A stretch of 64,000 nt of DNA, taken from positions 1 to 64,000 of IMG/VR virus record IMGVR_UViG_3300030419_006105; one strand, given 5' to 3'. Position 1 is the first letter of the stretch, and each line of letters begins with the position of its first letter. Source of the stretch: a virus. The notes beneath the pieces were generated by a model. The model was not told the DNA's origin. It was given only the letters and a program-made list of their open reading frames with translations, and searched no databases. A program made the translations under genes and the position numbers. Below, piece after piece: positions 4,413-54,934 of the stretch.

Positions 4413-5921
4413 TTATGAATAAGATGGGTTACCAGCAGCCGTAGCAACACCCAATCCAACAACAAATACTACATGGTAGTAGTTCGCTGCACCAAATAGG
4501 TGATCAACAACGCCGTAACGTGTTAACATACCCACTTTCGGATAGAATGAATCTGGATCAATCGAACGTTGAACCATAACTGGAATGTAAGGACAGTAAA
4601 TGATACCAGTATCATAATACTCAGGACCTTTATAACCAAGCAATGCGTACTCAATCTTAGCAGACTCAGTAGCAGTTGTTAAGTTGTAAGTAGCCTCTGT
4701 GCGTGTATCGCGGTAGATGTTAAAACGTCCACCAACGTTACCAACCTTAGCAACACCAACCGGTTGAGTGTTAACGTTACCGTCAACAGTCATCCATGAG
4801 AACTCAGGAAGCATCTCAAGCAGAGCGCAAACACGAGGAGTTGCAACGATAAAGTTAGCAGCACCACGACGGTTACGAACAGCAAGCCTGTTTGCTTCTA
4901 CGATCAACCTCTGATAGAAGTCACGGTTTCTTTCACCCATCCAACGAGCATCAGCTGTTGAAGACTTCCAGATTGAATAACCAATGTTCTTACCAGCGCC
5001 TGTAGCGGCCTTGATCATGCGAACAATCATTTCACGATCGATTTCAGCTTGAATCTCATAAGACATAGCATTTGTCAACTCAGCGTCAACATCAATACCA
5101 TTCATGTTCTTGAGATCCTGCTCTAACTCAACAGACCAACGAGCGTTCAACCTACGAGTACCAGCTTCAACAGCTGTCTTCTCGAAGCTCAACTCAATAG
5201 TTGGAGCTGTCTTACCGTTATCAAGCTCGAAAGCAGACAACGCAGCAGCGAAACCTTGATCAGTAGCATTGAAACCAGCAGACAACCAGTGAGTAGCTGG
5301 AACATCTGTATGGTTACTAGCTGTGCCATCTAAAGCTGCACCAAGTGTAGCAGTAGCAGAAGCACCTGTAAAGGCTGTATCCAAGTTATTGTGACCCATT
5401 TCACCAGTAGGTGCACCAGAAGAACCAGTGCCAGCAGTACCAGCGACAGAACTACCATAAGGTACGGGCGAAATAGTATTGCCATCGATCTTATTAGCAG
5501 TGTACTTATAACGAAGAGCAAATGCGAGACCAACCGGACCACTCATTGGCTGAACACCAACGATTTCGTTAGTAATCAACTCAGGGAATGTACGGCGAAT
5601 CATCGGAATAAGAATCTTCGGTAAACGAGCATCACTTGCAGCATATGTGTCGGCATCGTTATACGAGCCAGCACCCTGTCCAGCAGCCGGTGAAGGCGTA
5701 CCAAACGATCCACTAGCACCACCAGAGGTGTTAGCTTCCTTCAAACACCATTCCTCTTGGTTCTCAAGAAGGATGGCGGTGTTCAAACGCGTATGAGCGT
5801 TATCGATTGCTGAAACTTTATCAGAGGTATAATCCAATACAGGACTCCACTTCTCCAACAATGCTTGAGCTCGACTATTATCAATATAGTCTGTATTAGG
5901 ACGAGTTTCTGTTTCGTTCAT
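4413..5921 (-). CDS. gp23: Major capsid protein (T4 gp23-like)
   Basis: LLEKWSPVL, LLENQ, GVQPMSGPVGLAFALR, ELEQDLK, YCPYIP, TRYG motifs. Confidence 0.98.
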   Translation of the reverse strand: MNETETRPNTDYIDNSRAQALLEKWSPVLDYTSDKVSAIDNAHTRLNTAILLENQEEWCLKEANTSGGASGSFGTPSPAAGQGAGSYNDADTYAASDARLPKILIPMIRRTFPELITNEIVGVQPMSGPVGLAFALRYKYTANKIDGNTISPVPYGSSVAGTAGTGSSGAPTGEMGHNNLDTAFTGASATATLGAALDGTASNHTDVPATHWLSAGFNATDQGFAAALSAFELDNGKTAPTIELSFEKTAVEAGTRRLNARWSVELEQDLKNMNGIDVDAELTNAMSYEIQAEIDREMIVRMIKAATGAGKNIGYSIWKSSTADARWMGERNRDFYQRLIVEANRLAVRNRRGAANFIVATPRVCALLEMLPEFSWMTVDGNVNTQPVGVAKVGNVGGRFNIYRDTRTEATYNLTTATESAKIEYALLGYKGPEYYDTGIIYCPYIPVMVQRSIDPDSFYPKVGMLTRYGVVDHLFGAANYYHVVFVVGLGVATAAGNPSYS

Positions 5922-5989: not shown

Positions 5990-6874
5990 TTACAGTCGCA
6001 TGTTAGCTAACTCTTGAGCATACATACTAGTTGCTGATTTAGGTGTATCTGAGCTCTCTGATACAGCTTCAACCTGTGCATCCTGTATTTTTGCTTCACT
6101 AGCAGCCTCTTCCTTAAGAATCTCAAGAGACTCTTGAGCTTTCTTATCGAACATATTAACCGTGTAATCAAAATTTTCTTCAATAAAAGAAAGATCTTTA
6201 TCTGCAAATGTCTTTCTGACGAAATTGCTCTTCTTTTCATCAAGACCAACAAGCTTCTTCTCTAAGAAAACATCTTTCTTAAGAGTTTCAACTTCAGTGG
6301 TTAATGAGCTATTTGCTTTAGTAAGTTCTTCAATATTCTTTTTAGACTCTTCAATAGTATTCTTCCCATCTTGAACAGCCTCTCTAATAGATTCATTAGC
6401 AAGTACCATATCTACTGAAAGCATTTTACGAATCTCTTCCAACACTCCCATGGCTCTCTTATTATTAGTAGCTTCTTCGATAGTAGCTGCTGGAACTGCT
6501 TCTGCGATATATGAGTCAAGATAATCAGAAACAGATTCAACAATTGTATCTTTTAAACCACCAGCCTCTTCATTAAGAGCAGTCTGATATTTACGAACAA
6601 CATTCTTAAGCTTACGAGCACGATCAGCATCTACGGCTTCAACAACTTTTTTGAGTTTTTTCGTGTGATCGTTGTCTATTGTTTCCATGAGCTGTTCCAA
6701 CTTCTTAGAATGCTCGTCGTCTTGAGCCGCTAAAGCAGCTTCAGTGGCGATCTGAGCACGCTCCTCAGATTTCTTTTCTACAGCTTCTGTAAACACTGCT
6801 TCGATTTGCTCTAGACTTTCTTCTGTGAGAACGTCTTTTCCAACTTCTTTAAGTAAATCAGTTATCTTGCTCAT
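5990..6874 (-). CDS. gp22: Prohead core scaffold protein (gp22-like)
   Basis: Acidic coiled-coil, VSDYLDSY, many L/I-x-E sites, directly upstream of gp23. Confidence 0.88.
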   Translation of the reverse strand: MSKITDLLKEVGKDVLTEESLEQIEAVFTEAVEKKSEERAQIATEAALAAQDDEHSKKLEQLMETIDNDHTKKLKKVVEAVDADRARKLKNVVRKYQTALNEEAGGLKDTIVESVSDYLDSYIAEAVPAATIEEATNNKRAMGVLEEIRKMLSVDMVLANESIREAVQDGKNTIEESKKNIEELTKANSSLTTEVETLKKDVFLEKKLVGLDEKKSNFVRKTFADKDLSFIEENFDYTVNMFDKKAQESLEILKEEAASEAKIQDAQVEAVSESSDTPKSATSMYAQELANMRL

Positions 6875-7051: not shown

Positions 7052-7714
7052 TTAAATGTTTTTAATAAAAGCAATTATTTTATTTGTTAAATAATCACTC
7101 ACATCCTTAGACGGTAACTTCTTTAAACCCTCTTCAAATTTATCATAATGCTCTTCAAACTCACCTTTACGGTTTAAAATCCATTGTTTTGATTCTAAAA
7201 TACCGTTAACAAATGCATCAGAATATGACGGATCTGCTACACAATCAATAGCAACCAACTTCATTTCTGTAACATGACCAACATCAGAACCCGTATCCTG
7301 ATCAATTTTTCCTAATGCGCGAGATGACATACCAACACGAACACCATCTAAAACTAAATTCTTTACTATAGTACCTGTAGGGGTATTTAATACTTTACTC
7401 TTACCATAAAATATATTACCATCCTGTTTCATTTCGGTAACTATGTGACATGCTCTTTCTAGATCTACTTCCGCTGTAGTGGGATGATTCAATTCACCCA
7501 TGGCACGGTCTTGTTGAATCATTTCTTTGTCGTATCTACTTACTTCTTCAACCATATTATCTAAATCATAGATACGTTTATTTTTGTTAACATCAGACGC
7601 CATCATATAAGGGCCTTTGATATATAATCGTTCCCCTGACTTGGCATTCTTCTCTTCAACAATATATTCGAACTCAGACGGATCCGTTTTTTCGATTAAA
7701 AGTTTAAAGGCCAT
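7052..7714 (-). CDS. gp21: Prohead core protease (gp21-like)
   Basis: NKNKRIY, AMGELNHP, GMSSRALG, DCVADPS motifs. Confidence 0.96.
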   Translation of the reverse strand: MAFKLLIEKTDPSEFEYIVEEKNAKSGERLYIKGPYMMASDVNKNKRIYDLDNMVEEVSRYDKEMIQQDRAMGELNHPTTAEVDLERACHIVTEMKQDGNIFYGKSKVLNTPTGTIVKNLVLDGVRVGMSSRALGKIDQDTGSDVGHVTEMKLVAIDCVADPSYSDAFVNGILESKQWILNRKGEFEEHYDKFEEGLKKLPSKDVSDYLTNKIIAFIKNI

Positions 7715-9564: not shown

Positions 9565-11355
9565 TTATGTCGGCAACGCTGAAGTTTCTCCGCCTGGAGT
9601 TGGTACAGGTTCAGGAGCTGGACCCTCTCCACCTGGAGCTGCTCCAGGAGCTGCGGCAGGACCCATATCAGGTGGCATTTCTTCTCCTTCAGGACCAACT
9701 GCACCACCAGGTGCAGCGCCACCAGCTGGAGGTGTTGCACCTCCACCAGCAGCCCAATCAGCACCACCACCTCTAATTTGTTCTAACTCATGTTGTAATG
9801 CTGCATCTTTACGTAACCACTCTCTATTAGCCTTTATTTGTTCGTCAGTCCATCCAAGAAATTCTTTTTGACCATACCCTTGAGAAATAGATTCATTACC
9901 AGTAATGTTAGTAAAGTTATTAAGTTTAAGATCTAATACTTGTTGTTTACGTAATTCGAAATAATTACGTGGATGTACGAACTCTAAATCAAACCCGTTC
10001 TCCCTAAGTTCAAATTGCTTCCATACATTCCTTAATTTAAGGTGAGTAATAAATGCATCTTTTAAACCAGCAGCAAATTGCGCTTGTAGTCTAACGATAA
10101 AATTAGCGAACTTTAATTCTTCTCTTAACACATTAGCATCAGCACTATATTGCGAATTTTCTGTATCAACTCTATTAGTTGGTACCTTGAGTGCCTTATA
10201 TAACTTTTTAACAAAATAAACTAGGTCTTGTAATTCACCTAAATTTTGACCACCAGGTAGAGTATTAACTTCTGTACCAGTACTACCTTCTCTCTTTGGA
10301 AACCAGTAAGCATCTAATATAGATTGTGGATTAAATGACTGGACTCTTTTATCTTCATCAAGATTAAAAGATTTCTTACTCCAATAATTTTGCATTAACT
10401 TACGAATATAACTTTCTGCTTTTGGAGGACTCATTGTTCCAACATCAACATTAAATACTAATCGTTCTGGAGCTCTTACTAGACGATATATAATAATCGA
10501 ATCTTCAATTAATGATAACTGTCTATAAGCACGACGAGCATTTTCAATAAATGGTATTCTAAATGTTTTATTTTCATTCCATGTACCAGAATTAATATAT
10601 GTAATCTGATTTCGCTCCATAGGAATAAAATCCTTATCTTGCATAGTAGTGTGCTGGTATTGCTCATCTGCTTCTTTATGATGTTTAGCCTTTCTTAGCA
10701 AGTAAGCTTTAATATGCATATTTTGATAGTTATCATATACTGGGTCAATTGCTTGTGTCGGTACATTTATTACACCAAGTATACCTTCTTTAACATGCTT
10801 CTTATGAATAATGTTTTCAAAATACACTTCACCATCAACTAACAAGTTCCTTACATACTCCCATGCACGTTCTTTAAAATCAAATAAATTAATAAATTTA
10901 TTAAACTCTTCATTAAGTTGCTTATTAACTAAAGGATCAAAATCTCTTTCATCTCTTAACATGAGATTAATCATATTACCATTTTCATCTTCATTTAAGA
11001 ACTCATCACAAATTTCATCTAATGCATCTGCTACTTCAGCAAACTGTGCCATAGTTCTATAATCTCTAACCCTACGATACTTATCTACGTCTAGTGTCGC
11101 GTACATTAATTCGTTATACGCCTTATCAGCTAAGAACGAACCAACAGGGTGAGCTGATTCTGGTAATTTAGGAGCAACAATAGAGTGATGCGCTAAAAGC
11201 TCCTTGCGCATTGAACCTGCTTTATAAAAGTCTTCAAACTTCGGATTCTGTTGAGTTACGTCGTCTATAATAGCCGCAGGTGACCTATAGGGTAAATTGT
11301 TTTGAATAAATTTTTGTAACCCTGTTCCAAATGTTCCTTTTTGTCCGTCTGGCAT
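9565..11355 (-). CDS. gp20: Portal vertex protein (gp20-like) with a Pro/Gly/Ala-rich C-terminal tail
   Basis: YRTMA, IEDSIIIYRLVRAPERLVF.VDVG, YWFPKREG..GTEV.TLPGGQNLGE, LYKALKVP. Confidence 0.97.
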   Translation of the reverse strand: MPDGQKGTFGTGLQKFIQNNLPYRSPAAIIDDVTQQNPKFEDFYKAGSMRKELLAHHSIVAPKLPESAHPVGSFLADKAYNELMYATLDVDKYRRVRDYRTMAQFAEVADALDEICDEFLNEDENGNMINLMLRDERDFDPLVNKQLNEEFNKFINLFDFKERAWEYVRNLLVDGEVYFENIIHKKHVKEGILGVINVPTQAIDPVYDNYQNMHIKAYLLRKAKHHKEADEQYQHTTMQDKDFIPMERNQITYINSGTWNENKTFRIPFIENARRAYRQLSLIEDSIIIYRLVRAPERLVFNVDVGTMSPPKAESYIRKLMQNYWSKKSFNLDEDKRVQSFNPQSILDAYWFPKREGSTGTEVNTLPGGQNLGELQDLVYFVKKLYKALKVPTNRVDTENSQYSADANVLREELKFANFIVRLQAQFAAGLKDAFITHLKLRNVWKQFELRENGFDLEFVHPRNYFELRKQQVLDLKLNNFTNITGNESISQGYGQKEFLGWTDEQIKANREWLRKDAALQHELEQIRGGGADWAAGGGATPPAGGAAPGGAVGPEGEEMPPDMGPAAAPGAAPGGEGPAPEPVPTPGGETSALPT

Positions 11356-44464: not shown

Positions 44465-44481
44465 ATATTATATTTATTAAG

Positions 44482-45243: not shown

Positions 45244-45376
45244 TTAAATATAAATCTTTTATATCTCGTGTCTCTGGTTTAACCTCTTTCTTCTTAGGTT
45301 TACCCCAATCAATACTATCCCAGTTATCATTAACTTGACAAGTATCTTCTTTTCGTCTTTTACTACCTTTACTCAT
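45227..45376 (-). CDS. Small hypothetical protein (49 aa)
   Basis: Manual translation MSKGSKRRKEDTCQVNDNWDSIDWGKPKKKEVKPETRDIKDLYLNDKSL; its ATG overlaps the queD stop and it fills the queD-queE gap. Confidence 0.55.
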   Translation of the reverse strand: MSKGSKRRKEDTCQVNDNWDSIDWGKPKKKEVKPETRDIKDLYLNDKSL

Positions 45377-45861
45377 TAGTTTTGAACCCATTCGTATTGA
45401 GTATCTGATAAAGCTCTGGCATATTCAATATGATATATAGCAGAATTTTTCTCATGCTCAAAAACTTCTACCTTCTTACACCAACATCTATTATCAGTTG
45501 ATTCCTTTACATAATCATCAGCAGCTTTCCAGCAATATTGTGCAAATTTTTCAATACCAACTCCATCAGACATAATACGTAAATCAATTATACCTAATTC
45601 ATTTAATTCTTCAAATTTATTTAAATATGGATCGTTTGCATCAATAACCGTAGTATGATCAAATTGATTTTCTAATATTTTCTTTAAATGTTTCAAATCT
45701 CCAAAATCAACAACCCAATTATTTTCATCTAATTCTTTAGCTTCAAACCAAAATTTACCAACTAATCGATAACCATGTACAAACCGACAATGTGAATCTG
45801 CTTTTGGTTGTCTAAAGGCGCAGCTGCCTAATTCAATAATCTTTGTACTATTAAAAGACAT
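45376..45861 (-). CDS. queD: 6-carboxy-5,6,7,8-tetrahydropterin synthase
   Basis: HC..VHGY, WVVDFG, FDHT, E..A, EHEKNSA. Confidence 0.92.
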   Translation of the reverse strand: MSFNSTKIIELGSCAFRQPKADSHCRFVHGYRLVGKFWFEAKELDENNWVVDFGDLKHLKKILENQFDHTTVIDANDPYLNKFEELNELGIIDLRIMSDGVGIEKFAQYCWKAADDYVKESTDNRCWCKKVEVFEHEKNSAIYHIEYARALSDTQYEWVQN

Positions 45862-45868
45862 AAGATCT

Positions 45869-45927
45869 ATTATACATTAATCTAAAATAAAATCAAGGGT
45901 TGAATTTAAAAAAAAATTTCATATAAT
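45869..45927. promoter_or_regulatory. Back-to-back sigma70-type promoters for queD and folE
   Basis: Minus: TTGATT(45896-91)-N16-TATAAT-N7-ATG; plus: TTGAAT(45900-05)-N16-TATAAT-N6-ATG. Confidence 0.75.
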
Positions 45928-45933
45928 AAACTC

Positions 45934-46569
45934 ATGAGTGAATTACTGCAATATGCAAATGGTAACTTACCGCGAACTGAAGAAGAAAAAGAAATAATTA
46001 TTGATAAAGCCGCGGCTGCATATGAAAAATATATGGATGCTTTAGGGTTTGATTGGAGAAATGATCCTAATAGCGCTGATACCCCAAGACGTGTAGCAAA
46101 AGCTTTTGTTAATGACTTAGCAGAAGGTTGTTATAATGTACCTCCTAAAATTACAGCATTTGATAATGTTGATAAATATGATGGATTAGTTTTTCAAGGT
46201 AATATAAAAGTTAATTCTTTTTGCTCACATCACCATTTACCGTTTATCGGGCAAGCTCATGTATCTTACATACCTGGAAAAGACGGAAAAGTAATTGGTT
46301 TAAGTAAAATAAATCGAATTGTCGAATGGTTTTCGAGACGTCCGCAAGTACAAGAAAACTTAACTATGCAAATTCATAATTATATGAATGAAGTATGTAA
46401 AGATAATAAAGGAATTGCTGTTTTAGTATCAGCTAACCATACTTGTGCTGGTCTAAGAGGAGTAAAACATGATAGTATTATGAAAACTGCTAGAATGTCA
46501 GGAGCATTTTTAGATAAAACTGATTTAACCAGACAAGAGTTTTATGATTTTATAAGAGACTTAAAGTGA
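45934..46569 (+). CDS. folE: GTP cyclohydrolase I
   Basis: TPRRVAK, CSHHHLPF.G, GLSK..R, RPQVQE.LT, H.C...RG. Confidence 0.97.
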   Translation: MSELLQYANGNLPRTEEEKEIIIDKAAAAYEKYMDALGFDWRNDPNSADTPRRVAKAFVNDLAEGCYNVPPKITAFDNVDKYDGLVFQGNIKVNSFCSHHHLPFIGQAHVSYIPGKDGKVIGLSKINRIVEWFSRRPQVQENLTMQIHNYMNEVCKDNKGIAVLVSANHTCAGLRGVKHDSIMKTARMSGAFLDKTDLTRQEFYDFIRDLK

Positions 46570-47784
46570 GTCAAAAATTTCTTTAATTTGTGCAGGGTCG
46601 ATATGCTCCGGTATATCGGCTTTTATTTTCTCAAAATTATCAAAATTATCTCTTATATTACTCGCACTATAAGGGGTACCATCTGCTTTTAATGTAACAT
46701 CAACAGCAGACTGTGCTGGATCAACTATATCAATTTCTAATCCTTCTTTTTCAGCCCATGGTTGTGCATGTGACCATCTTTTCCAATCATTATCTTTTCT
46801 ACTAGCACCTAACACAACTGTTGTACCTGGATCTAACGTCTTTAATGTCTCATATGCTGATGTAACGGGGGATGGGAACTGTGAGATACTAACAGTTACG
46901 TTATTAAGAGGTTGTGTATATAATTCAAATATTTGTTTTGCAGCATCTGGTGTAATCAATTTACCATCACTAGTTCTTCTTTCACTTTTAGCTGAAGGAG
47001 CTGAGATTAATACATGAACATGACCGTCAGGATACAATTGACTATACTCTTTAACCATTTCGTAATGGCCTTTATGAGGTGGTTTAAAACTACCAGGAAC
47101 AAGAACGACTACTCTACTGTTTTTTTTTACATCTTCAATAGCAGTATTAGCAGCAATAGAAAGTTTACTTTGTAAGTCTTGTAACTCAAAATTTTCTAAA
47201 ATAGAATCTATCTTAGAATCAAACCCTTCACTCAATCCATAATCAACTACAATTTTGCGTAAAATTTTTGCTATCTCTTTTGCGTTTTCAGGTTGTACAT
47301 CTTGTGTAATTGCTTCTCTTTCAGAATCTGATAAACTAACATTATCTAAATCTACAAACAATGACTTACGAGCAAGATTAACATAAAAAGTTTCACCTTC
47401 TGTAGTCATAGGATCTGGAGTTGGTTCTTCTTCTGGTTGTTGAGTGAAATCATCTTTACTTGCTGGCTCAAATTCACCACCTGTTTCAGGACCCTTTCTA
47501 GGTGTAAATTCATCATCTTCAGCTTCAAGTACTTTACCTTTAGGTTTATTACTTGACATAGCAACTTTAGCTAATTGCTTTCCAGCAGCCATAGTAGCCT
47601 TTTTTAATCCTTGCAAAAGCTTTTTCTGCACTGGAGTAGGTTTTTTAGTAGGATCTGTCTTACCAGCGATTTCAGCTGCTCTAGCTGCAGCTATTGCAGC
47701 TTGAGTACCAGCTTGTTTTTGTTGATATTTATTAGCACCGGCCTCACTTAATAGATTGTCTATTTTCGTGGTAAACTTACTCAT
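46561..47784 (-). CDS. Late protein with a C-terminal HIGH-family nucleotidyltransferase domain
   Basis: PGSFKPPHKGH and YSASNIR motifs; perfect TATAAATA at 47791-47798; N-terminal half has repeated L/I-x-E sites. Confidence 0.7.
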   Translation of the reverse strand: MSKFTTKIDNLLSEAGANKYQQKQAGTQAAIAAARAAEIAGKTDPTKKPTPVQKKLLQGLKKATMAAGKQLAKVAMSSNKPKGKVLEAEDDEFTPRKGPETGGEFEPASKDDFTQQPEEEPTPDPMTTEGETFYVNLARKSLFVDLDNVSLSDSEREAITQDVQPENAKEIAKILRKIVVDYGLSEGFDSKIDSILENFELQDLQSKLSIAANTAIEDVKKNSRVVVLVPGSFKPPHKGHYEMVKEYSQLYPDGHVHVLISAPSAKSERRTSDGKLITPDAAKQIFELYTQPLNNVTVSISQFPSPVTSAYETLKTLDPGTTVVLGASRKDNDWKRWSHAQPWAEKEGLEIDIVDPAQSAVDVTLKADGTPYSASNIRDNFDNFEKIKADIPEHIDPAQIKEIFDSL

Positions 47785-47793
47785 TGTAATTAT

Positions 47794-48336
47794 TTATAGG
47801 AGAGAAAGTTTATTTCTTATGTCTTCGAAATATGTTTTGTCTAAAAATGTAAGCTCATATTTCTTACAAAAATAATGTAGTCTGTTAAAATAATAGTCTG
47901 TATTTTGTATCTTCTTAAGCTTGCGAAGTAATATTATGCTTAATTCTTCTTTATAACCATCACATTTGCATTTTTTCTTGAGTTCCTTAAGAGAATACAT
48001 TTCTCTTATTATTAATACTGGAAATTTTTTCTCAAAAGTCTGTAAAAACGACGAGTATTTCGTATTTAAATCAACATCAACATCAAAATATATAACAGGT
48101 TTATTCTTTTTATTATGAGCTTTAAGAACCTCGCATGTATAATGTATAAAATAATGAAAAATATATTTTTTATGTAGAGAATTGTTAAATTTAAGCTCAG
48201 GAGAAAATTCAGAAATTTTATCTATAGAAATATTATGAATATAATTAATTACTGGAGTAAAATTTACTAAATTAAAATAGGAACCAGGTATTCTATAACT
48301 TAATCCCGGTATTTTCGTTAATTCTTCTAAGTGCAT
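47794..48336 (-). CDS. Hypothetical protein
   Basis: 180 aa ORF; faint resemblance to the T4 RNase H N-terminus without the acidic residues. Confidence 0.5.
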   Translation of the reverse strand: MHLEELTKIPGLSYRIPGSYFNLVNFTPVINYIHNISIDKISEFSPELKFNNSLHKKYIFHYFIHYTCEVLKAHNKKNKPVIYFDVDVDLNTKYSSFLQTFEKKFPVLIIREMYSLKELKKKCKCDGYKEELSIILLRKLKKIQNTDYYFNRLHYFCKKYELTFLDKTYFEDIRNKLSLL

Positions 48337-48796
48337 CTGCGTTATTCTGCCAAAACTCTGTATAATTAGTTATAATATATTTGTTAGCATAACGCAAGTA
48401 ATTTTTAAATCGGAAATAATGTGACATTGTAGTTGGAAATAAAATAAAACTACCCCTCCTTGTCACTTTGATAACAAGAAACCAACAACTACCACTCTCT
48501 GCTTGCTTGATCCATTTATTAAGAGTTTTATTATCGGTAAACAATTGATGAAAATCAAATGATTTATAACTTTTACACTCGATTTTAAATTTCGATAAAC
48601 ACGGTGGTACCATGATATCTCCATCCATCATCCGTTTTTGATCTTCCGTTAGTTTATCAAGTCTGTGAAGATTAGCGCCTCCAGTATAGGCTCCGGAATT
48701 TGGAACTCTAATAAAATTTTCATTAAACGTTTCACTTAAATCTTTTGCAACTTCGCGTTCCCAAGCGTTACCTTTTTGTTTCGCTGCGCTAGGCAT
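48293..48796 (-). CDS. Holliday junction resolvase-like PD-(D/E)XK nuclease
   Basis: KG.AWEREVA, R.P.SGA, GDI, IECKSY, W..Q. Confidence 0.8.
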   Translation of the reverse strand: MPSAAKQKGNAWEREVAKDLSETFNENFIRVPNSGAYTGGANLHRLDKLTEDQKRMMDGDIMVPPCLSKFKIECKSYKSFDFHQLFTDNKTLNKWIKQAESGSCWFLVIKVTRRGSFILFPTTMSHYFRFKNYLRYANKYIITNYTEFWQNNADALRRINENTGIKL

Positions 48797-48809
48797 ATAT
48801 ATTTACTTA

Positions 48810-49736
48810 TCACTTAACCAGATCTTGCAAGTTAATAGCTTGCTTAACTGCATCTTTCGGAATTTGAGCTGTCCAATAATTACCTTCATCAGCAGGTTGT
48901 AATTCAGGTAATTTATCTCTATCTAATATAAGTAAATAACCTCTACCGGTTTCTTTATATACATGAAATGCAAATCTACCAGCTAATTGAATATCATCCG
49001 AAACATACGAACCAGTAATACCTTTGCGCGTATTACCAGCTCCACGTGAAACAACAAAACCATGTTTAATTAAATTTTTGTATTCCGCAGAAGAAATCCC
49101 GCGATAGACTTCGCTAGGGTCGTTTTGTAGTTTAGCAATTTTAGCAACGATATTTTCGTGTTCTTCTCCTTCTGGTGGGAATAAAAGGTAGTCATATATA
49201 CTTTTTTCGTTAATTGTAAAATTTTTAATAATACCATGATATTCAAATGTACTATCATCATCAATTACATTTTCGTCATTATGTAATTTGTTTAAATTTA
49301 AATTATTAATAGGGATAGATAAAATAACAATTTGATCTAACCAAGAATCCGGAACTACATCGTTTGTTTCTGCGTAACTATAAGCAACGTCAGGATCTTT
49401 AGCTAGATAAACTACCCCAGGCTTACTATCTTCCCAATTAGTCTGGGCTCCAGATCCTCCTAAACCATTTTTTTGTATACTCTTTAATAACGGTTTATAC
49501 GTTGCGTGATATAAAATGTCATTACTTTCGTTTAGTTTTTTTTTACGCTTTTTAGTTTTAACTTTACCTTGTCGCTTTATTGTAACACCTAAAACCTTAG
49601 GTATTCTATTATCTCCTGGTGCATAAGTATCAGTAGCTTCATAATCTCCTCCACCTTGTCCTCCACCAGCAGCCATTCCTGCAGAAGCTGTAGTATTATC
49701 CGTTAAATACTGTTTAACTGCTTCATCGAATTTCAT
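48810..49736 (-). CDS. Late protein: capsid N-arm-like peptide, basic patch and two ADP-ribosyltransferase-like domains
   Basis: Residues 25-55 match gp23 residues 80-110; LYHAT...GL...VYLA...FEY domain; VYRG...YVS domain; TAAATA-N6-ATG. Confidence 0.6.
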   Translation of the reverse strand: MKFDEAVKQYLTDNTTASAGMAAGGGQGGGDYEATDTYAPGDNRIPKVLGVTIKRQGKVKTKKRKKKLNESNDILYHATYKPLLKSIQKNGLGGSGAQTNWEDSKPGVVYLAKDPDVAYSYAETNDVVPDSWLDQIVILSIPINNLNLNKLHNDENVIDDDSTFEYHGIIKNFTINEKSIYDYLLFPPEGEEHENIVAKIAKLQNDPSEVYRGISSAEYKNLIKHGFVVSRGAGNTRKGITGSYVSDDIQLAGRFAFHVYKETGRGYLLILDRDKLPELQPADEGNYWTAQIPKDAVKQAINLQDLVK

Positions 49737-49800
49737 TATAATTATTTATCTCTATCTTTACAATTAGTTGCACTTACGAGGATATAACTATAATAAATAT

Positions 49801-50205
49801 ATGGATGTTAGTGAGATTATTAATCAATATCTTGAAGAAGCTAATATAGATACAGATTTAGATCGATTAGAAGTTGTTACTACTCAGGAAAGATTAGTAA
49901 ATAATAAACATAAATGGTCAGCTCGATTAATAAATCATAAAATTAATTTAAATAATTTTAAGTTAAAGAGAACTTCTATTCTTGAGGAAAAAATTACCGA
50001 ATTTCAAAATACAGAACCCGTAAAAGTTAATAGATCAATAGCAGAAAAAGCTGTTCAAAATAAAAAAGAAATTAGAGTTTTAGATTTAAAAATTAAAAAT
50101 GAACAACTAATTATTGACTACCTAGAAAACATCTACAAAAATATAAGTTTCGCTACTAATGATATTAAAAATTTAGTAGAACTTATGAAGCTTGAAACAC
50201 AATGA
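49801..50205 (+). CDS. uvsY: Recombination mediator UvsY-like protein
   Basis: Helical, HKW, YLE...K......DIKN.VE..KLE; directly upstream of uvsW; start set at ATG 49801. Confidence 0.75.
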   Translation: MDVSEIINQYLEEANIDTDLDRLEVVTTQERLVNNKHKWSARLINHKINLNNFKLKRTSILEEKITEFQNTEPVKVNRSIAEKAVQNKKEIRVLDLKIKNEQLIIDYLENIYKNISFATNDIKNLVELMKLETQ

Positions 50206-51641
50206 TTAATATTAAATTTAATTCTTCTTCTCATGCTGTTATTGACGGACCTGAGCTTGATATTATACGTGAACATTTTAGCGTAAAAAATGACGCTGTA
50301 CATTTTCAGCGTCGTTACGGAAGATTTGTTCCTCCAAGAACATATGTTATCACTAATCAAGGGAAAGTAGAAATAGGTCTAATAGAAGAAATAATAAAAT
50401 TTTGTTTACAAAAACAGATAAAATTTGAATTACAAAAAGAAATAAAAGAAATACTTTATCCATCTTTATCTAAAAAACATACAACACCATATGATTTAAA
50501 ATTAAAATTAAGAGACTATCAACAAGAAATAATTGAAAAATGTATTAATGCTGGACGTGGTACAGTAGTCTTAGCAACCGCTGGAGGTAAAACTCTTACT
50601 ATGGCTAGTCTTTTAGAATTTTATTACAAAAATTATAGTAAAAATTTTAAATGTTTAATTATTGTTCCTGATTTAGGTCTAGTAAATCAAACAAATGGAG
50701 ATTTTAAAGAATATGGTACATCGTTTACAACATCAAAATGGACAGGTAAAAACGAATTAGATTTATCTTCTAATGTTGTGGTAGCGAATTTAGGTATTTT
50801 ACAAAGTTCAAAACAATCTATAGATTGGATTAAACATATAGATCTTCTTATTATTGACGAAGTACATAAATTAAGAAGAGGAAATAAAGTAAATAAAATT
50901 TTAAAAAACGTAAACACTAATAATCGATTTGGATTCACTGGGACATTACCACCAGATAATTTAGATAAATGGAATATTTTTGGTAAAATAGGTCCTCAGT
51001 TGTTTGAAAAAAAAGCTCATGAGCTAAGAAAGGATAATTATGTAGCACCAGCTAAAGTTCATGTATTAGAATTAAATTATAACACTCCATGTGAGCAAAT
51101 ATATCATGGAAACAATAGTAATGCTTATTATCTACAGGAAAATGAATTTATACGTAGTAGTGAATATAGAAATAATTTAATTGCTAAATTATGCAATAAG
51201 CTTGACAATAACGGATTAATATTAGTCGACTATATTGAACATGGAGAACTTTTGTTAGAAGCTCTCCAAGGAATTTGCAAGTATAAAGATGTATATTTTA
51301 TACAAGGTAGTGTAGATACAGATCAACGTAAAGATATACAAGACTATATGGAGGCACAAAAGAATGTAGTTGTAATTGCTATTTCAAAAATATTTTCTAC
51401 AGGTATTAATATTAAGAATTTACACTACATTATATTTGGTGGTGGTGGAAAAGCTAAAATAAAAATAATACAGAGCATAGGTCGAGGCCTACGCTTGCAT
51501 ATTGATAAAGAAGAGCTTATAATCTTTGATATAGCTGATAACTTACGATATGGTCAACGTCATGTAGAACAAAGATTATCATTATATGACAGTGAACATA
51601 TAGAATATACATTTACACAATTTAATGAAACAAAAAAATAA
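50202..51641 (+). CDS. uvsW: UvsW-like SF2 DNA helicase
   Basis: LRDYQ, ATAGGKT, DEVH, GFTGT, FSTGINIKNLH, QSIGRGLR. Confidence 0.93.
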   Translation: MINIKFNSSSHAVIDGPELDIIREHFSVKNDAVHFQRRYGRFVPPRTYVITNQGKVEIGLIEEIIKFCLQKQIKFELQKEIKEILYPSLSKKHTTPYDLKLKLRDYQQEIIEKCINAGRGTVVLATAGGKTLTMASLLEFYYKNYSKNFKCLIIVPDLGLVNQTNGDFKEYGTSFTTSKWTGKNELDLSSNVVVANLGILQSSKQSIDWIKHIDLLIIDEVHKLRRGNKVNKILKNVNTNNRFGFTGTLPPDNLDKWNIFGKIGPQLFEKKAHELRKDNYVAPAKVHVLELNYNTPCEQIYHGNNSNAYYLQENEFIRSSEYRNNLIAKLCNKLDNNGLILVDYIEHGELLLEALQGICKYKDVYFIQGSVDTDQRKDIQDYMEAQKNVVVIAISKIFSTGINIKNLHYIIFGGGGKAKIKIIQSIGRGLRLHIDKEELIIFDIADNLRYGQRHVEQRLSLYDSEHIEYTFTQFNETKK

Positions 51642-52065
51642 AAAGAAAAACAAAAAGACTTATTATGTTAGTCCAAAAGAGTTTTTACAACTATTAAAAA
51701 ATTATTATGAAACAGATGATTTAGTAGATGAACTAGCAGAAGCTACATATAAAATTGCTGTTGGTTTAAGTTATTCACCTAATTTCATAAATTATAGCTA
51801 CAAAGATGAAATGATTGGTGATGCTATAGTAAAAATGATAGCAGCTGTTAAAAATAAAAAATTTAATCTTGAATCTACATCGAATCCGTTTTCTTATTTT
51901 ACTACAATTGCATATCACGCTTTTATTAATAGAATAAAAAAAGAAAAAAAGTATAGAGAAACTATTAATTCTTACCAAGAGCAATTATATAGCGATTTAG
52001 ATATAACCGATAGTACTCCAAGTAAAGCTCCTCAAAAGGATTACGATAAAGAATTATACACATAA
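51625..52065 (+). CDS. gp55: Late transcription sigma factor (gp55-like)
   Basis: YV..KEF, IA.GLS..PNF.NYSY.DEMI.D, NPFSYFTTIAY.AFI.RIKKEKK. Confidence 0.93.
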   Translation: MKQKNKKKNKKTYYVSPKEFLQLLKNYYETDDLVDELAEATYKIAVGLSYSPNFINYSYKDEMIGDAIVKMIAAVKNKKFNLESTSNPFSYFTTIAYHAFINRIKKEKKYRETINSYQEQLYSDLDITDSTPSKAPQKDYDKELYT

Positions 52066-53111
52066 TGTCATCTGACATCCATAAAATTGGTTTTTTTACT
52101 GATTTACATTTAGGCCAGCATCAAAATAGTGAAAAATGGCATGATGTAGCGTATAAATGGGCAAAATGGTATACTAAAGAGCTAAAAAGTAAAAAAATCA
52201 GTAAAATAATTTTTGGAGGGGATTTATTTCATTATAGAGACGAAATAAATGTTAAAACTTTATTTTTTGCAAATAAATTATTAGATTTATTTAATGATTT
52301 TGAAATATTAATGATTCCAGGTAATCATGATGCATATTATAAAGATAATTCAACAGTTCATTCATTATCAATTTTAAGTAATAGACACAATATAACTATT
52401 TTTGATAAACCTCATGTCGAAAATATATGTGGAAAACAAGTAGGATTTTGCCCATGGGGTACAGAGCCAAAAGATATACCCGAGAATTGCGATTTAATAG
52501 TCGGTCATTTTGAGTTACAAAACTTTAGCTTTAATTCTTTTAAGGTTTGTGAATCTGGAATGACATCAGATGATGTTTTAGCTAGATCTAACCTAATATT
52601 TTCAGGTCATTTTCATAAAAGACAGCATCGAAAGTATGATAACGGAGAAATTATATTTGCTGGTAATCCATTTGAAATGGACTTTAATGATATTAATGAT
52701 CAAAAGGGTTATTATATATTAGATTTTAAATCTGACGATATAAAATATAAATTTTATAAAAATGAAGTTTCTCCAGTTCATATAAAGGTAACATTATCAA
52801 ATTTAGAAAAACTTAAAGAAATAGCATCTAAAAAAGGGTGGTCAAACTTAGCAGTAAAGATTGTAATTGATAAAGATATAAAATCTAATTTATTAGATAA
52901 AATTATCTCATCGATAAATTTTGAAGCTCCTTTTTCATTGACTACTGATTATTTAAATCAATTTAGTATAGGAGATAAATTAAACATAACTAATGAGTTC
53001 GGTGACTTGAATGTCAAACAATGTATTATAGAATACATAGAGTCTTTAGATATTGACAACAAAACAGAAGTAATAAGACGAACTGTACAGTTATATAATA
53101 ATTTTTCATGA
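52065..53111 (+). CDS. gp47: Recombination endonuclease subunit (gp47, Mre11-like)
   Basis: DLHLG, GDLFH, GNHD, GHFE, SGHFH, GNP. Confidence 0.93.
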   Translation: MSSDIHKIGFFTDLHLGQHQNSEKWHDVAYKWAKWYTKELKSKKISKIIFGGDLFHYRDEINVKTLFFANKLLDLFNDFEILMIPGNHDAYYKDNSTVHSLSILSNRHNITIFDKPHVENICGKQVGFCPWGTEPKDIPENCDLIVGHFELQNFSFNSFKVCESGMTSDDVLARSNLIFSGHFHKRQHRKYDNGEIIFAGNPFEMDFNDINDQKGYYILDFKSDDIKYKFYKNEVSPVHIKVTLSNLEKLKEIASKKGWSNLAVKIVIDKDIKSNLLDKIISSINFEAPFSLTTDYLNQFSIGDKLNITNEFGDLNVKQCIIEYIESLDIDNKTEVIRRTVQLYNNFS

Positions 53112-54934
53112 AGTATGTAGATTTTAACTCGGTGAAAATCCGTAATTTTCTTTCTATTGGATCAAAGCCGGTGGAAATTGACTTTAGATACGGTTTAAAC
53201 ATTATTACTGGTGTTAATAAGGATAAAGAAGATAGAAGAAACGGGGTTGGTAAGTCGACAGTAGCTGATGCCATACATTTTGCTATTTTTGGAGAGACTA
53301 TTCGTGAACTATCAAAAGATTTTATTGTAAATTCTATTAATAAGAAAAATACATACGTAGAATTAAATTTTTCTATAAATGAAAATAATAAAATACAAAA
53401 CTACAAAATAGTTCGCAAACTTAAACCTACAAAATGTTATCTATATGTTAATGATGTAGATTTAACAGAGAGTACTATACCTAACACAAATAAAAAGATA
53501 AAAAATCTATTAAATAGCTCTCCTGAGGTATTTCAAAACTGTGTTATTATGTCTCTTAATACAACCTTACCATTTATGGCACAGCGTAAGGTAGAAAAGA
53601 GAAAATTTATAGAAGGTATACTTAATTTAGAAATATTTTCTGAAATGTTACTATCAGCTCGTGCTGAATACAACGAAGTACAAAAAAAGTACGAACATAT
53701 TACTAAGGATTATGATCACGCAAATAATATATGTAAATTATTAAATGATCAAAAGGAAAATATAGTTAAGACTGTAAAAGAGCAAAGAAAGAAAATATTA
53801 TCTCGCATTGATATTATTAACACAGAAATAGAAGAGAATAAATCTAAAATACAAAATATTAATAAAGAATTATTTGAAAAAAGTAAAAGTAAATTTAAAG
53901 TTATAACTGAGAAAATTACTGACATATCAACCCAACTTTCTAATGTAAAAACTAAAATTACAAGACATGAAACTGAAATAGATTTTCATACTAAAAAGCT
54001 TGATGCTATTGGTACATCAAAAGATGTATGTCCTACATGTTTACATCAAATTACAAGTAATGATAGAGATCATATTAAAAATGAAAAAAATATTATAGAG
54101 AAAGATATTAAAAACTGTAAAGAGGATATAGAAAGTTTAAATAAACAAATTACTAATATAAGAGAATTAAAACAAAATAATTTAAACGCACAAAAACAAA
54201 TTAATGAATATATTTCTAATATTAAAGCTGTAAACAATAATAATAAATTAGCAAAAACATATATTGTAAATTTAAATAAAGACTTAGAAAAAAATAATAA
54301 AGAACTTAAAGAATTACAAGATAGAGAGACAAGTTTAGAGATAAAAGAACTAGATAATAAAATTAATATTAATCTTAAAGAAGTACAACAATTAGAAAAA
54401 GATTCTACTAGTATTCACAATGACTTATCTATGTTAGAAGTTGTAAAATATATTTTATCAGAAGAGGGAGTTAAGTCATTTATTGTTAAAAAGATATTAG
54501 ATGTTCTTAATAACAGATTATTGTACTATTTACAGAAAATGGATGCAAATTGTGTTTGTAGATTTAACGAATACTTTGAAGAAGAAATTGTAAACGAAAA
54601 AGGAGAGAGTTGTTCTTACTTTAATTTTTCTGGTGCTGAAAGAAAGAATATTGACTTAGCTATATTATTTACATTTATGGATATTAGAAGACTTCAAGGA
54701 GACATTGCATATAATTTAGTTATGTTTGATGAATTGCTTGATAGTTCTTTAGATGAAAAAGGTGTTGAATTAGTTCTTAATATAATAAAAGAAAGAGTAG
54801 AGACATATAATGAGAGTATTTATATTATTTCTCATAGAAAGGAATCAGTAAAAGCTGCCACTGGTGATGTAGTAGTACTAGAAAAGAAAAACGGTATAAC
54901 TACAAGAGTTGACTTTACTAATAAATCTGAATAA
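53108..54934 (+). CDS. gp46: Recombination ATPase subunit (gp46, Rad50-like)
   Basis: NFLSIG, NGVGKST, CPTC zinc hook, FSGAE, FDELLD, ISH. Confidence 0.95.
   Translation: MKYVDFNSVKIRNFLSIGSKPVEIDFRYGLNIITGVNKDKEDRRNGVGKSTVADAIHFAIFGETIRELSKDFIVNSINKKNTYVELNFSINENNKIQNYKIVRKLKPTKCYLYVNDVDLTESTIPNTNKKIKNLLNSSPEVFQNCVIMSLNTTLPFMAQRKVEKRKFIEGILNLEIFSEMLLSARAEYNEVQKKYEHITKDYDHANNICKLLNDQKENIVKTVKEQRKKILSRIDIINTEIEENKSKIQNINKELFEKSKSKFKVITEKITDISTQLSNVKTKITRHETEIDFHTKKLDAIGTSKDVCPTCLHQITSNDRDHIKNEKNIIEKDIKNCKEDIESLNKQITNIRELKQNNLNAQKQINEYISNIKAVNNNNKLAKTYIVNLNKDLEKNNKELKELQDRETSLEIKELDNKININLKEVQQLEKDSTSIHNDLSMLEVVKYILSEEGVKSFIVKKILDVLNNRLLYYLQKMDANCVCRFNEYFEEEIVNEKGESCSYFNFSGAERKNIDLAILFTFMDIRRLQGDIAYNLVMFDELLDSSLDEKGVELVLNIIKERVETYNESIYIISHRKESVKAATGDVVVLEKKNGITTRVDFTNKSE

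What the first reader, a model, noticed from the sequence alone, without database searches (positions are those of the whole stretch)
48810..49736. Protein carrying a copy of the major-capsid N-arm fused to two ADP-ribosyltransferase-like domains: candidate capsid cargo-loading or capsid-mimic system
Seen: residues 25-55 of this ORF (GGQGGGDYEATDTYAPGDNRIPKVLGVTIKR, nt 49572-49664) align without gaps to gp23 residues 80-110 (AGQGAGSYNDADTYAASDARLPKILIPMIRR, nt 5592-5684), 16/31 identical by hand count plus L/I, I/V and R/K swaps, although the two genes are ~44 kb apart. A basic patch follows (KVKTKKRKKK), then LNE/S, a domain with YHAT...GL...VYLA...FEY, then INE/K and a second domain with VYRG...YVS. 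The gene has a late TAAATA motif 6 nt before its ATG. Established: T4 gp21 cleaves head proteins after L/I-x-E; T4 packages and injects the ADP-ribosyltransferase Alt; H-Y-E and R-S-E are the ART catalytic signatures; the matched gp23 segment runs into the equivalent of the T4 Gol peptide sensed by the Lit defence protease. Inference: the peptide occupies an N-arm site in the assembling prohead to load ART effectors, which gp21 releases for injection. Alternatively it is a decoy for capsid-sensing immunity.
Basis: partly seen in the sequence, partly recalled or inferred. Interest (0 to 1): 0.9.

Follow-up and report, generated by a model that had tools for sequence, protein, structure and literature searches.

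The report
Capsid-arm copy leading packaged ART-fold cargo
A late gene of an uncultured marine T4-like phage starts with a copy of the flexible N-terminal stretch of the phage's own capsid protein, followed by two small ADP-ribosyltransferase-fold modules separated by head-protease-type cut sites, so it is most likely a protein loaded into the phage head and delivered with the DNA.

Summary
ORF 48810..49736(-) matches the phage's own gp23 over residues 26-55 against 81-110: 16/30 identical, E 7e-7. No shuffle of 5000 reached the score, and the profile-profile probability is 96.6%. Both downstream domains fold as minimal ARTs closest to the Tpt1/KptA NAD-binding domain (Z 10.4 and 11.4).

- **Domains.** Domain 1 keeps H-Y-E. 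Domain 2 lacks the catalytic Glu.
- **Common form.** Most relatives are about 200 aa: leader, lysine run, LNE|S, domain 2.
- **Domain 1 cassette.** It sits just after the cut site, brings its own INE|K site, and is absent from some metagenome contigs.
- **Relatives of domain 2.** Elsewhere it carries a T4-style capsid-targeting leader.
- **T4 parallel.** Uncharacterised T4 gp61.1 has the same plan: targeting leader, copy of T4's own gp23 N-terminus, lysine run.

Best reading: an internal head protein whose leader imitates the gp23 segment that faces the scaffold core in the prohead, not an "N-arm site". Packaging, cleavage and enzyme activity are all inferred.

Short-range co-variation with gp23 was not detected, and no variable cargo was found in this clade. 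This scan has noted capsid-arm mimics before on other DNA. My two library searches found no paper on them.

The parts
49743..49749 (-). ATAAATA late-promoter-like motif, ending 6 nt before the ATG
   Evidence: Sequence read. 16 of 121 roughly called genes have this motif within 60 nt upstream, against 1.9 expected; they include gp21 and ORF 46561..47784. The full TATAAATA is not enriched in the window as a whole: 15 found against 25.6 expected.
49698..49736 (-). Residues 1-13 (MKFDEAVKQYLTD): targeting-type amphipathic leader ending in L-x-D (L-x-E in the P0079-P0097 subgroup)
   Evidence: Alignment A1. Other late-motif ORFs of the same genome start in a similar way, for example MSKFDTLFE|A, MGKFENRFLSLLKE|D and MSKFTTKIDNLLSE|A. 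T4 IPII and IPIII begin MKTYQEFIAE and gp61.1 begins MKTFKEFIKE. Function is inferred.
49569..49670 (-). Residues 23-56: copy of the first part of mature gp23 (GGQGGGDY..DTYAPGDxRxPKVLGxTIxR)
   Evidence: In the 35-sequence family D36, D42, R44 and R55 are invariant, and T37, Y38, A39, P40, G41, P46, L49, G50 and I53 are conserved in at least 90%.
49536..49565 (-). Residues 58-67: lysine/arginine run (KVKTKKRKKK); the DNA holds an A9 run
49524..49535 (-). LNE|S (residues 68-71): predicted prohead-protease (gp21-type, L/I-x-E) cut site
   Evidence: E70 is invariant and position 68 is Leu or Val in all 35 sequences. The T4 gp21 motif L/I-X-E is from PMC9026906 (passages read). Cleavage is inferred.
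49206..49523 (-). Residues 72-177: domain 1, a minimal H-Y-E ART-fold cassette (H77, Y110, E165) ending in its own INE|K site (175-178)
   Evidence: AF2 pLDDT 86.2. VIA Z 10.4, rmsd 2.7 A over 90 residues to the C-domain of Tpt1/KptA. Foldseek tops are all ART-superfamily. Conservation. The cassette is absent from 66 of 67 leader-bearing relatives. One metagenome contig joins 49200 to 49522 across it.
48813..49205 (-). Residues 178-308: domain 2, ART fold with conserved Y211, R212, S230, Y244, D283 and N286 (no conserved catalytic Glu)
   Evidence: AF2 pLDDT 91.2. VIA Z 11.4, rmsd 2.1 A over 90 residues to Tpt1. Foldseek results. Conservation.
5589..5690 (-). gp23 residues 78-111: the source-like segment, that is the N-terminal region of mature gp23
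   Evidence: 115 of 120 gp23 of the clade carry D.Y...D.R.P..L...I.R. The segment maps to T4 gp23 at about residues 70-101.
5733..5744 (-). gp23 L60-K61-E62|A63: predicted maturation cleavage site
   Evidence: W58, C59 and E62 are invariant in 51 gp23, and the pattern is WC[LI]xE. Cleavage is inferred from the T4 rule.
7052..7714 (-). gp21-type prohead protease gene (starts MAFKLLIE|K)
   Evidence: ORFs; ATAAATA upstream. The identification rests on its position next to gp22 and gp23 and was not scanned against a family library here.
5990..6874 (-). gp22-type scaffold gene, rich in L/I-x-E
   Evidence: 160 relatives found in viral contigs. Named from its position and composition, not from a family scan.

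Best explanation
The gene encodes an internal (head-packaged, probably ejected) protein of a T4-like marine myovirus.

Its first ~70 residues form a gp61.1-type module with three parts: a targeting-type leader (1-13), a copy of the first ~35 residues of mature gp23 (23-56), and a lysine run (58-67).

In T4 that gp23 stretch is inside the prohead, is disordered, and is thought to contact the gp22 scaffold core. I infer that the copy makes the same contact and so builds the protein into the core during prohead assembly.

The gp21-type protease would then cut after LNE70 and INE177. That would free the basic leader peptide and two small ART-fold modules, which stay with the DNA and enter the host on infection.

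Domain 1 (H-Y-E) is a plausible NAD-using transferase. Domain 2 has the fold but no conserved catalytic Glu, so its chemistry is open.

Shown here: the homology to gp23, the folds, the conservation of the junctions, the cassette polymorphism, and the parallel in T4 gp61.1. Inferred: packaging, cleavage, the scaffold contact, ejection and enzyme activity.
For: 1. The leader is a real, constrained copy of gp23.
- The invariant D36, D42, R44 and R55 of the cargo match the invariant D91, D97, R99 and R110 of gp23.

2. Junctions.
- E70 is invariant and P3 is Leu or Val in 35 of 35 sequences.
- Across the hits outside the leader-bearing family (P0098-P0265), [LIV]-x-E lies within 14 residues upstream of domain 1 in 80 of 113 cases (23.9 expected), within 18 residues downstream in 65 of 84 (20.7 expected), and upstream of domain 2 in 10 of 12 (2.8 expected).

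3. Domain 2 in other T4-like contigs stands alone behind 10-residue leaders such as MKSFSEFISE|D, MKSFIEFLNE|A and MKNFLTYLRE|A.
- These resemble T4 IPII/IPIII MKTYQEFIAE|A.
- The LNE|(A/S)K(T/S) junction is the same as in this family.

4. T4 gp61.1 is a targeting leader plus a copy of T4 gp23 57-93 (17/37 identical, E 6e-9) plus KKKK. Each mimic matches only its own phage's gp23: cross comparisons give E 0.17, 6.6 and 37.

5. The copied gp23 stretch maps to T4 residues ~70-101.
- PMC9546572 (passages read) says aa 66-105 are unresolved in the unexpanded head, point inward and probably touch the scaffold core.
- The same stretch holds the head-length mutations A94V and G97S.

6. Late-type motif 6 nt before the ATG.

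7. ART folds. Alt is the precedent for a packaged, processed ART (PMC9026906 and PMC5512222, passages read).

8. Domain 1 is a cassette.
- It is absent from 66 of 67 relatives.
- One contig of run X6 joins across it with near-identical flanks.
Against: - No virion, cleavage or binding data exist; the phage is uncultured. Its best gp23 matches among 50,697 phage records are 31-36% identical.
- No co-variation between the cargo copy and its own gp23 within the clade. Own pairs average 16.2 identical of 34 and other pairs 16.4, and 518 of 720 permutations do as well. Only 3 pairs were verified on one contig; 3 were inferred from equal contig lengths.
- The leader ends in L-T-D here, not L-x-E.
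- The leader's first 13 residues resemble the T4 targeting sequence only loosely and did not fit my stricter pattern.
- A more distant T4-like record (G005) that has domain 2 shows no copy of its own gp23 N-terminus at E <= 1.
- Domain 2 lacks the catalytic Glu.
- All sequence-family matches to ART families fall below the curated cut-offs.
- The flank-motif counts come from related sequences and are not independent events.
Confidence: 0.55

Rival explanations
1. One reading: the peptide occupies a gp23 N-arm binding site on neighbouring capsid subunits in the shell and so tethers the ART cargo to the shell.
For: The copy covers the stretch that forms the N-arm/N-fist in mature T4 heads (PMC9546572, passages). 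The invariant residues are shared with gp23.
Against: In T4 the arm and fist form only after expansion and lie on the outer surface, where they help bind Soc. In the unexpanded head the segment is disordered and points inside (PMC9546572, passages). Cargo tethered inside could not reach such a site. No test of this binding was run here.
Confidence: 0.12
2. The gp23 copy is a docking or pacing element for the prohead protease. It mimics the substrate region next to gp23's cut site, so that the cargo is recognised, or competes, at the right time.
For: In T4 gp61.1 the similarity begins at the cut site itself (FIKE|D against FLTE|A). In this family the leader ends L-x-D/E at the position matching gp23's L-K-E.
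Against: T4 gp21 is described as needing very few determinants beyond L/I-x-E (PMC9026906, passages). Here the cut predicted to release the cargo lies downstream of the copy, not upstream as in gp23.
Confidence: 0.1
3. A late cytoplasmic enzyme that is not packaged (as T4 ModA/ModB are not). On this reading the leader has another role or none.
For: No direct evidence of packaging. The gene lies among recombination and replication genes (uvsY-like at 49768..50205, a PDDEXK nuclease at 48293..48796), not in the head cluster.
Against: The cut-site junctions are conserved and domain 2 relatives carry targeting-type leaders. T4 ipI-III also lie outside the head cluster.
Confidence: 0.12
4. A decoy for host immunity that senses the capsid protein (the Lit/Gol type or similar).
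For: It is a free copy of part of gp23, made at the same late time.
Against: The copy ends at gp23 R110. It leaves out the block R109-Y138, which is invariant in 51 gp23. The review PMC3014915 (passages) describes the Gol region as the most conserved part of gp23. The lysine run and the cut sites are not explained by a decoy role.
Confidence: 0.05
5. Chance or low-complexity similarity.
For: The stretch is short and partly Gly-rich.
Against: 0 of 5000 shuffles reach the score; gp23 is the unique genome-wide hit; hhalign gives 96.6%.
Confidence: 0.01

Closest known systems
[quoted passage not shown]
   Same: A short N-terminal leader ending in L/I-x-E, late expression, variable cargo behind it, and predicted removal of the leader by the prohead protease. 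Stand-alone relatives of domain 2 carry leaders very like MKTYQEFIAE.
   Different: Here the leader is about 70 residues and contains a copy of gp23's mature N-terminus and a lysine run. There is no sequence similarity of the cargo to IPI-III. Packaging is untested.
T4 gp61.1 (54 aa, annotated as a hypothetical protein; NC_000866 18966-19130)
   Same: The same three-part plan: targeting leader, a copy of the phage's own gp23 from the cut site onward, and a lysine run.
   Different: gp61.1 stands alone with no cargo. It has no direct sequence similarity to this leader (E 37). Its function is unknown. The lead came from earlier notes of this scan.
T4 Alt (head-packaged, processed, injected ADP-ribosyltransferase)
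   Same: An ART-fold enzyme predicted to be packaged, trimmed by gp21 and injected.
   Different: Alt belongs to the R-S-E-2 clade and is far larger (PMC5512222, passages). The PHROGs scan gave no Alt/Mod family for this protein. The domains here are about 105-130 residues and structurally closest to Tpt1/KptA.
ART domains of phage polyvalent proteins (Iyer et al. 2017; Pfam ART-PolyVal PF18760)
   Same: Domain 1 is a mobile module found in multidomain phage proteins of up to 1662 aa. Viral fold matches for domain 2 include ParB-like, MuF-type and ART-PolyVal-like polyvalent proteins.
   Different: Only 3 of 50 domain 1 relatives touch PF18760, and weakly (best E 0.068). Here the modules are bounded by prohead-protease-type sites rather than accompanied by a zincin peptidase.
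Tpt1/KptA RNA 2'-phosphotransferase
   Same: Best structural match for both domains (Z 10.4 and 11.4). 18 of 50 domain 1 relatives give weak PTS_2-RNA hits (best E 0.0016).
   Different: Only the C-terminal NAD-binding half of Tpt1 is matched (chain residues about 85-183). The N-terminal RNA-binding domain is absent, and the scores are below Pfam's cut-off.

Membership tests
T4-type internal head protein (CTS-bearing, gp21-processed) | N-terminal targeting leader of the MKT(Y/F)xEFIxE type | tested here: inconclusive
   The window protein starts MKFDEAVKQYLTD, which is similar in pattern but did not fit my stricter regular expression. Stand-alone domain 2 relatives do carry such leaders, as judged against T4 ipII, ipIII and 61.1.
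T4-type internal head protein (CTS-bearing, gp21-processed) | L/I-x-E cleavage motif between the leader and the mature part | tested here: met
   LNE70|S: E70 invariant, P3 Leu or Val in 35 of 35 sequences. INE177|K follows domain 1. This is a motif only; cleavage has not been shown.
T4-type internal head protein (CTS-bearing, gp21-processed) | Late transcription | tested here: inconclusive
   ATAAATA ends 6 nt before the ATG and shows a positional enrichment (16 of 121 genes against 1.9 expected). No RNA data are available.
T4-type internal head protein (CTS-bearing, gp21-processed) | Presence of the processed protein in virions and ejection into the host | not testable with these tools
   The phage is uncultured and no proteome is available.
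ADP-ribosyltransferase superfamily (fold) | Split beta-sheet ART fold with an NAD-binding cleft | tested here: met
   Domain 1: Z 10.4, rmsd 2.7 A, 90 residues aligned. Domain 2: Z 11.4, rmsd 2.1 A, 90 residues aligned. The Foldseek top rows are all ART-superfamily members. These are predicted models (pLDDT 86.2 and 91.2).
H-Y-E ART clade (domain 1) | His on strand 1, Tyr on the next core strand, Glu on the late strand | tested here: met
   H77 is invariant; Y110 and E165 are conserved in at least 90% of 50 sequences. They lie on model strands 9-15, 43-47 and 98-102. No residue-level superposition on a solved ART was available.
R-S-E ART clade (domain 2; includes Alt/Mod and the cholera-toxin type) | Arg, Ser-x-Ser and a catalytic Glu (ExE/QxE) | tested here: not met
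   R212 is conserved in at least 90% and S243-Y244-V245-S246 are present. The late-strand position is an invariant N286. E284 is Lys in 2 and Pro in 3 of 35 sequences, and D283 is invariant.
Pfam ART families (Exotox-A_cataly, PTS_2-RNA, PARP, ART-PolyVal, TreTu_C) | Score at or above the curated gathering cut-off | tested here: not met
   Whole protein: Exotox-A_cataly 15.1 bits against a cut-off of 25.9. Domain 1 relatives: PTS_2-RNA in 18 of 50 (best E 0.0016), Exotox-A in 7, PARP in 3, ART-PolyVal in 3. Domain 2 relatives: TreTu_C in 4 of 29 (best E 0.069).
gp61.1-type capsid-arm mimic module | A leader, then a copy of the phage's own gp23 from the cut site onward, then a basic run | tested here: met
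   Window. T4. This 'family' is defined by architecture only; there is no sequence similarity between the two.

The most novel reading that the evidence does not exclude
T4-like phages carry a hitherto undescribed assembly or address module: a free or fused copy of the scaffold-facing N-terminus of their own major capsid protein. T4 gp61.1 is the stand-alone form and this gene is a cargo-bearing form.

The module tracks each lineage's capsid protein and can be joined to effector cassettes that are delimited by prohead-protease sites and swapped in and out in natural populations.

If this is right, it identifies the contact that loads proteins into T4-type heads, and the contact becomes testable in T4 itself.
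Probability: 0.4. Interest if true: 0.75.

Novelty: new variant of a known kind. Interest (0 to 1): 0.62.

Why it matters
How T4-type phages choose which proteins to load into the head is known only as far as a 10-residue tag; its receptor in the core is not defined.

A leader that copies the part of the capsid protein facing the scaffold points to a concrete contact. It suggests that cargo and shell compete for, or share, the same core surface.

Three points make this useful:
- The same plan occurs in the unstudied T4 gene 61.1, so it can be tested in the best-developed phage system.
- The ART-fold cassettes bounded by protease sites, present or absent in wild populations, show how injected effector sets can be reshuffled.
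- The leader could serve as a packaging tag for phage-based delivery in laboratory strains.

Tried and rejected
- **Phage records.** tblastn of the ORF and megablast of 44000-54000 against 50,697 phage records found nothing.

- **Variable cargo.** A search with residues 1-72 gave 67 hits, all the same family of 178-214 aa except P0001 at 310 aa. Only proteins of 169-539 aa sharing 5-residue words could appear. The apparent extension of matches into long proteins (P0217, P0210, P0206, P0149, P0214) proved on reading to be domain 1 only.

- **Co-variation within the clade.** Not detected. The test is underpowered.

- **Complex prediction.** gp22 (alignment A6) with cargo residues 1-72 (A1) gave no answer: score 0.00 against a mark of 0.32, and the controls were not run. 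This is evidence neither for nor against binding. No complex with gp23 was tried because the cap is one job.

- **ORF 46561..47784 against gp22.** The N-terminal likeness I thought I saw is not supported by BLASTP (best E 9.2, elsewhere in the proteins).

- **Mixed alignment A2.** MAFFT laid domain 1 relatives onto domain 2. I did not use A2 for folding and do not count it as evidence that the two domains are homologous.

- **TATAAATA.** The full octamer is not enriched in the window as a whole. Only the positional test with ATAAATA is informative.

- **A copy of its own gp23 N-terminus in record G005.** None at E <= 1. The first look of that tool can miss short matches.

- **RNA evidence.** No RNA holder was listed. 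In the runs laid, X2 and X4 (identical figures, possibly one data set) have no cover over 49211-49492 and contigs that stop at 49200 and 49522. I count only the X6 contig that joins across the insert.

- **Protein Atlas.** Only unnamed clusters, plus weak leads to PARP and Tox-ART-HYD1.

- **Literature.** The search for '61.1' returned only numbers. The five-term search on capsid mimics found no relevant paper. These two searches are the basis for 'not found in print'. Subscription journals are largely absent from the library, and supplements were not consulted.
Full report
**What is there**

ORF 48810..49736(-) encodes 308 residues. The window lies in a single 116,366-bp virus contig of 31% G+C. 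The contig carries a T4-type head cluster:
- a portal-like gene at 9565..11355;
- a protease-like gene at 7052..7714;
- a scaffold-like gene at 5990..6874;
- gp23 at 4413..5921 (Pfam Gp23 E 1.5e-87).

The best gp23 matches among 50,697 phage records are cyanophage proteins at 31-36% identity. The phage therefore belongs to an uncultured marine T4-like clade. The runs that hold the stretch are marine metagenomes.

**The similarity is real**

- BLASTP aligns residues 26-55 with gp23 81-110: 16/30 identical, no gaps, E 7e-7.
- Among all frames of at least 50 aa in the contig, gp23 is the sole hit besides the ORF itself (E 1.1e-6; the next is 3.7). None of 5000 shuffles reaches the score (86 against a maximum of 56).
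- In 35 relatives of the protein the stretch is one of the most conserved parts. D36, D42, R44 and R55 are invariant. T37, Y38, A39, P40, G41, P46, L49, G50 and I53 are conserved in at least 90%.
- In the gp23 clade, 115 of 120 proteins carry D.Y...D.R.P..L...I.R, preceded by a Gly-rich stretch with GQGGG.Y and by an invariant WC[LI]xE cut-site motif.
- Profile against profile gives 96.6% probability, E 6.5e-10, cargo 23-56 against gp23 78-111.
- By eye the likeness extends to the leader's end: YLTD-NT in the cargo against CLKE-ANT in gp23. That part is not scored.

**What the copied stretch is in gp23**

phmmer aligns the window's gp23 with T4 gp23 (E 5e-37). By my count on that alignment, gp23 81-110 corresponds to T4 residues 70-101.

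PMC9546572 (passages read) reports the following for T4:
- aa 66-105 are flexible and unresolved in the unexpanded head;
- the first built residue, L106, points inward;
- the head-length mutations A66D, A94V and G97S lie in it;
- after expansion it is externalised and becomes the N-arm and N-fist, which contribute to Soc binding sites.

T4 A94, G97 and M98 fall opposite cargo residues V48, V51 and T52.

At the stage when cargo is loaded, no arm site exists, and later the arm is outside.

**The rest of the protein**

After the copy come a lysine run (58-67; the DNA has an A9 run) and LNE70|S.

Two AlphaFold models were made from alignments of 50 and 29 sequences. They have mean pLDDT 86.2 (residues 66-180) and 91.2 (residues 176-308). 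Fold searches give:
- Foldseek tops for both are Tpt1/KptA, followed by cholera, heat-labile and pertussis toxins, Arr, DarT, RES and CC0527.
- VIA-align gives Z 10.4 (rmsd 2.7 A, 90 residues) for domain 1 and Z 11.4 (rmsd 2.1 A, 90 residues) for domain 2, both against the C-terminal half of Tpt1.
- Viral matches for domain 2 include ParB-like, MuF-type and ART-PolyVal-like polyvalent proteins.

All sequence-family hits are sub-threshold.

Domain 1 keeps H77, Y110 and E165 on the expected strands. Domain 2 keeps Y211, R212, S230, Y244, D283 and N286 but has no conserved Glu at the catalytic position. "Two ART-like domains" is therefore right for the fold. "R-S-E" is not met for domain 2.

**Architecture in relatives**

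- Of 67 proteins that match residues 1-72, 66 are 178-214 aa: leader, lysine run, LNE|S, domain 2. One, P0001 at 310 aa, has domain 1 as well. Among 54 viral-contig loci, L001 has the long form.
- Domain 1 is inserted exactly after LNES and ends with its own INE|K.
- A contig of run X6 (594 nt) joins 49200 to 49522 with three other letters between and near-identical flanks. Run X1 has contigs across the insert. Both forms therefore exist in the sea.
- Domain 1 is otherwise a module of multidomain phage proteins of up to 1662 aa.
- Its flanks, and the upstream flank of domain 2, are strongly enriched in [LIV]-x-E: 80 of 113, 65 of 84 and 10 of 12, against 23.9, 20.7 and 2.8 expected. Recurrent linkers include [LIV]xE-NFADG. 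These counts come from related sequences and are not independent.

**Evidence that domain 2 is head cargo**

In other T4-like contigs domain 2 stands alone behind 10-residue leaders: MKSFSEFISE|D, MILSFKQFVTE|G, MKNFLTYLRE|A and MKSFIEFLNE|A. T4 IPII and IPIII begin MKTYQEFIAE|A.

PMC9026906 (passages read) states that:
- the first 10 residues of IPIII suffice for packaging;
- gp21 cuts after L/I-X-E;
- Asp at position 10 blocks processing but not targeting;
- Alt is a packaged, processed ART.

The junction LNE|(A/S)K(T/S)(V/I)(F/Y)DYLL is the same in the short-leader and long-leader forms. The long leader therefore looks like a replacement of the front part of a classical targeting sequence.

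**The T4 parallel**

Earlier notes of this scan pointed to T4 gene 61.1, and I checked the claim. The T4 record annotates a 54-aa hypothetical protein. Its sequence is a targeting-type leader, then a stretch 17/37 identical to T4 gp23 57-93 (E 6e-9) that starts at the cut site, then KKKK.

It has no similarity to this window's leader or gp23 (E 37 and 0.17), and this leader has none to T4 gp23 (E 6.6). Each mimic thus matches only its own capsid protein across a deep divergence.

Within the clade, however, six pairs show no tracking. One distant record, G005, shows no mimic at all.

**Expression signal**

ATAAATA ends 6 nt before the ATG. The motif is found within 60 nt upstream of 16 of 121 genes, against 1.9 expected. 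These include the protease gene and several ORFs whose N-termini carry [LIV]-x-E within 22 residues. No RNA run holds the stretch.

**Verdict**

This is most likely a packaged, protease-processed protein with a gp61.1-type capsid-copy leader and ART-fold cargo. The likely partner of the copy is the scaffold core rather than an arm site.

The decoy reading is weak. The copy stops just before the invariant gp23 block R109-Y138, and PMC3014915 (passages) describes the Gol region as the most conserved part of gp23.

Iyer et al. 2017 (PMC5512222, passages) predicted that phage polyvalent proteins are packaged and are processed by zincin peptidases. The prohead-protease-type junctions seen here are a different and simpler route.

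Everything about packaging, cleavage, binding and catalysis remains inference.

Noticed in passing
window 46561..47784 (-): A 407-aa ORF behind a perfect TATAAATA (47791-47798). It begins MSKFTTKIDNLLSE|A, has a long charged N-terminal half, and ends in a cytidylyltransferase-like domain (PF01467, E 1.2e-4). A database protein (P0183, 410 aa) fuses such a nucleotidyltransferase domain directly to domain 2 (PF01467 E 1.2e-6 in 1 of 29 members). This hints at a functional link between an NMN/NaMN-adenylyltransferase-like enzyme and the ART-fold module, and at a second packaged protein.
   Followed up: partly
genome contig G000:C1 73726..74118(-), 76219..77145(-), 95035..95529(-) (outside the window): Further ORFs with ATAAATA just upstream whose N-termini look like targeting leaders ending in [LIV]-x-E (MGKFENRFLSLLKE|D, MTGKDFDMLNE|A, MSKFDTLFE|A). 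They are candidate additional internal head proteins.
   Followed up: no
whole contig; e.g. window 49743..49749, 7052..7714 upstream: In most of the 16 genes that have it, ATAAATA sits only 5-13 nt before the ATG. If transcription starts a few bases after the motif, as at T4 late promoters, many late mRNAs here would have almost no leader.
   Followed up: no
window 49536..49565 (-): The lysine run contains an A9 homopolymer. Three short database proteins (P0202 98 aa, P0220 75 aa, P0233 67 aa) consist of the leader and end just after the lysine run. They may be frameshift artefacts at such runs, or genuine stand-alone leader genes like T4 61.1.
   Followed up: no
proteins P0098, P0100, P0102, P0104, P0106, P0113, P0116: Many marine polyvalent proteins join their modules with a recurrent [LIVM]-x-E-NFADGK linker. 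They end in a shared basic Cys-containing tail (..GKSRPGRVK..GASCKGS..YHWCANMK..). In 19 linkers, P3 is Leu, Ile or Val in 17.
   Followed up: partly
window 7052..7714 (-): The protease-like ORF starts MAFKLLIE|K. This parallels the LIE-9 motif near the N-terminus of T4 gp21 that PMC9026906 mentions as a possible autocleavage site.
   Followed up: no
L054 / record G005 (141,905 bp, direct terminal repeats): A more distant T4-like phage (gp23 35% identical) has domain 2 as a 140-aa protein with a classical 10-residue leader (MKNFLTYLRE|A). It has no detectable copy of its own gp23 N-terminus.
   Followed up: partly
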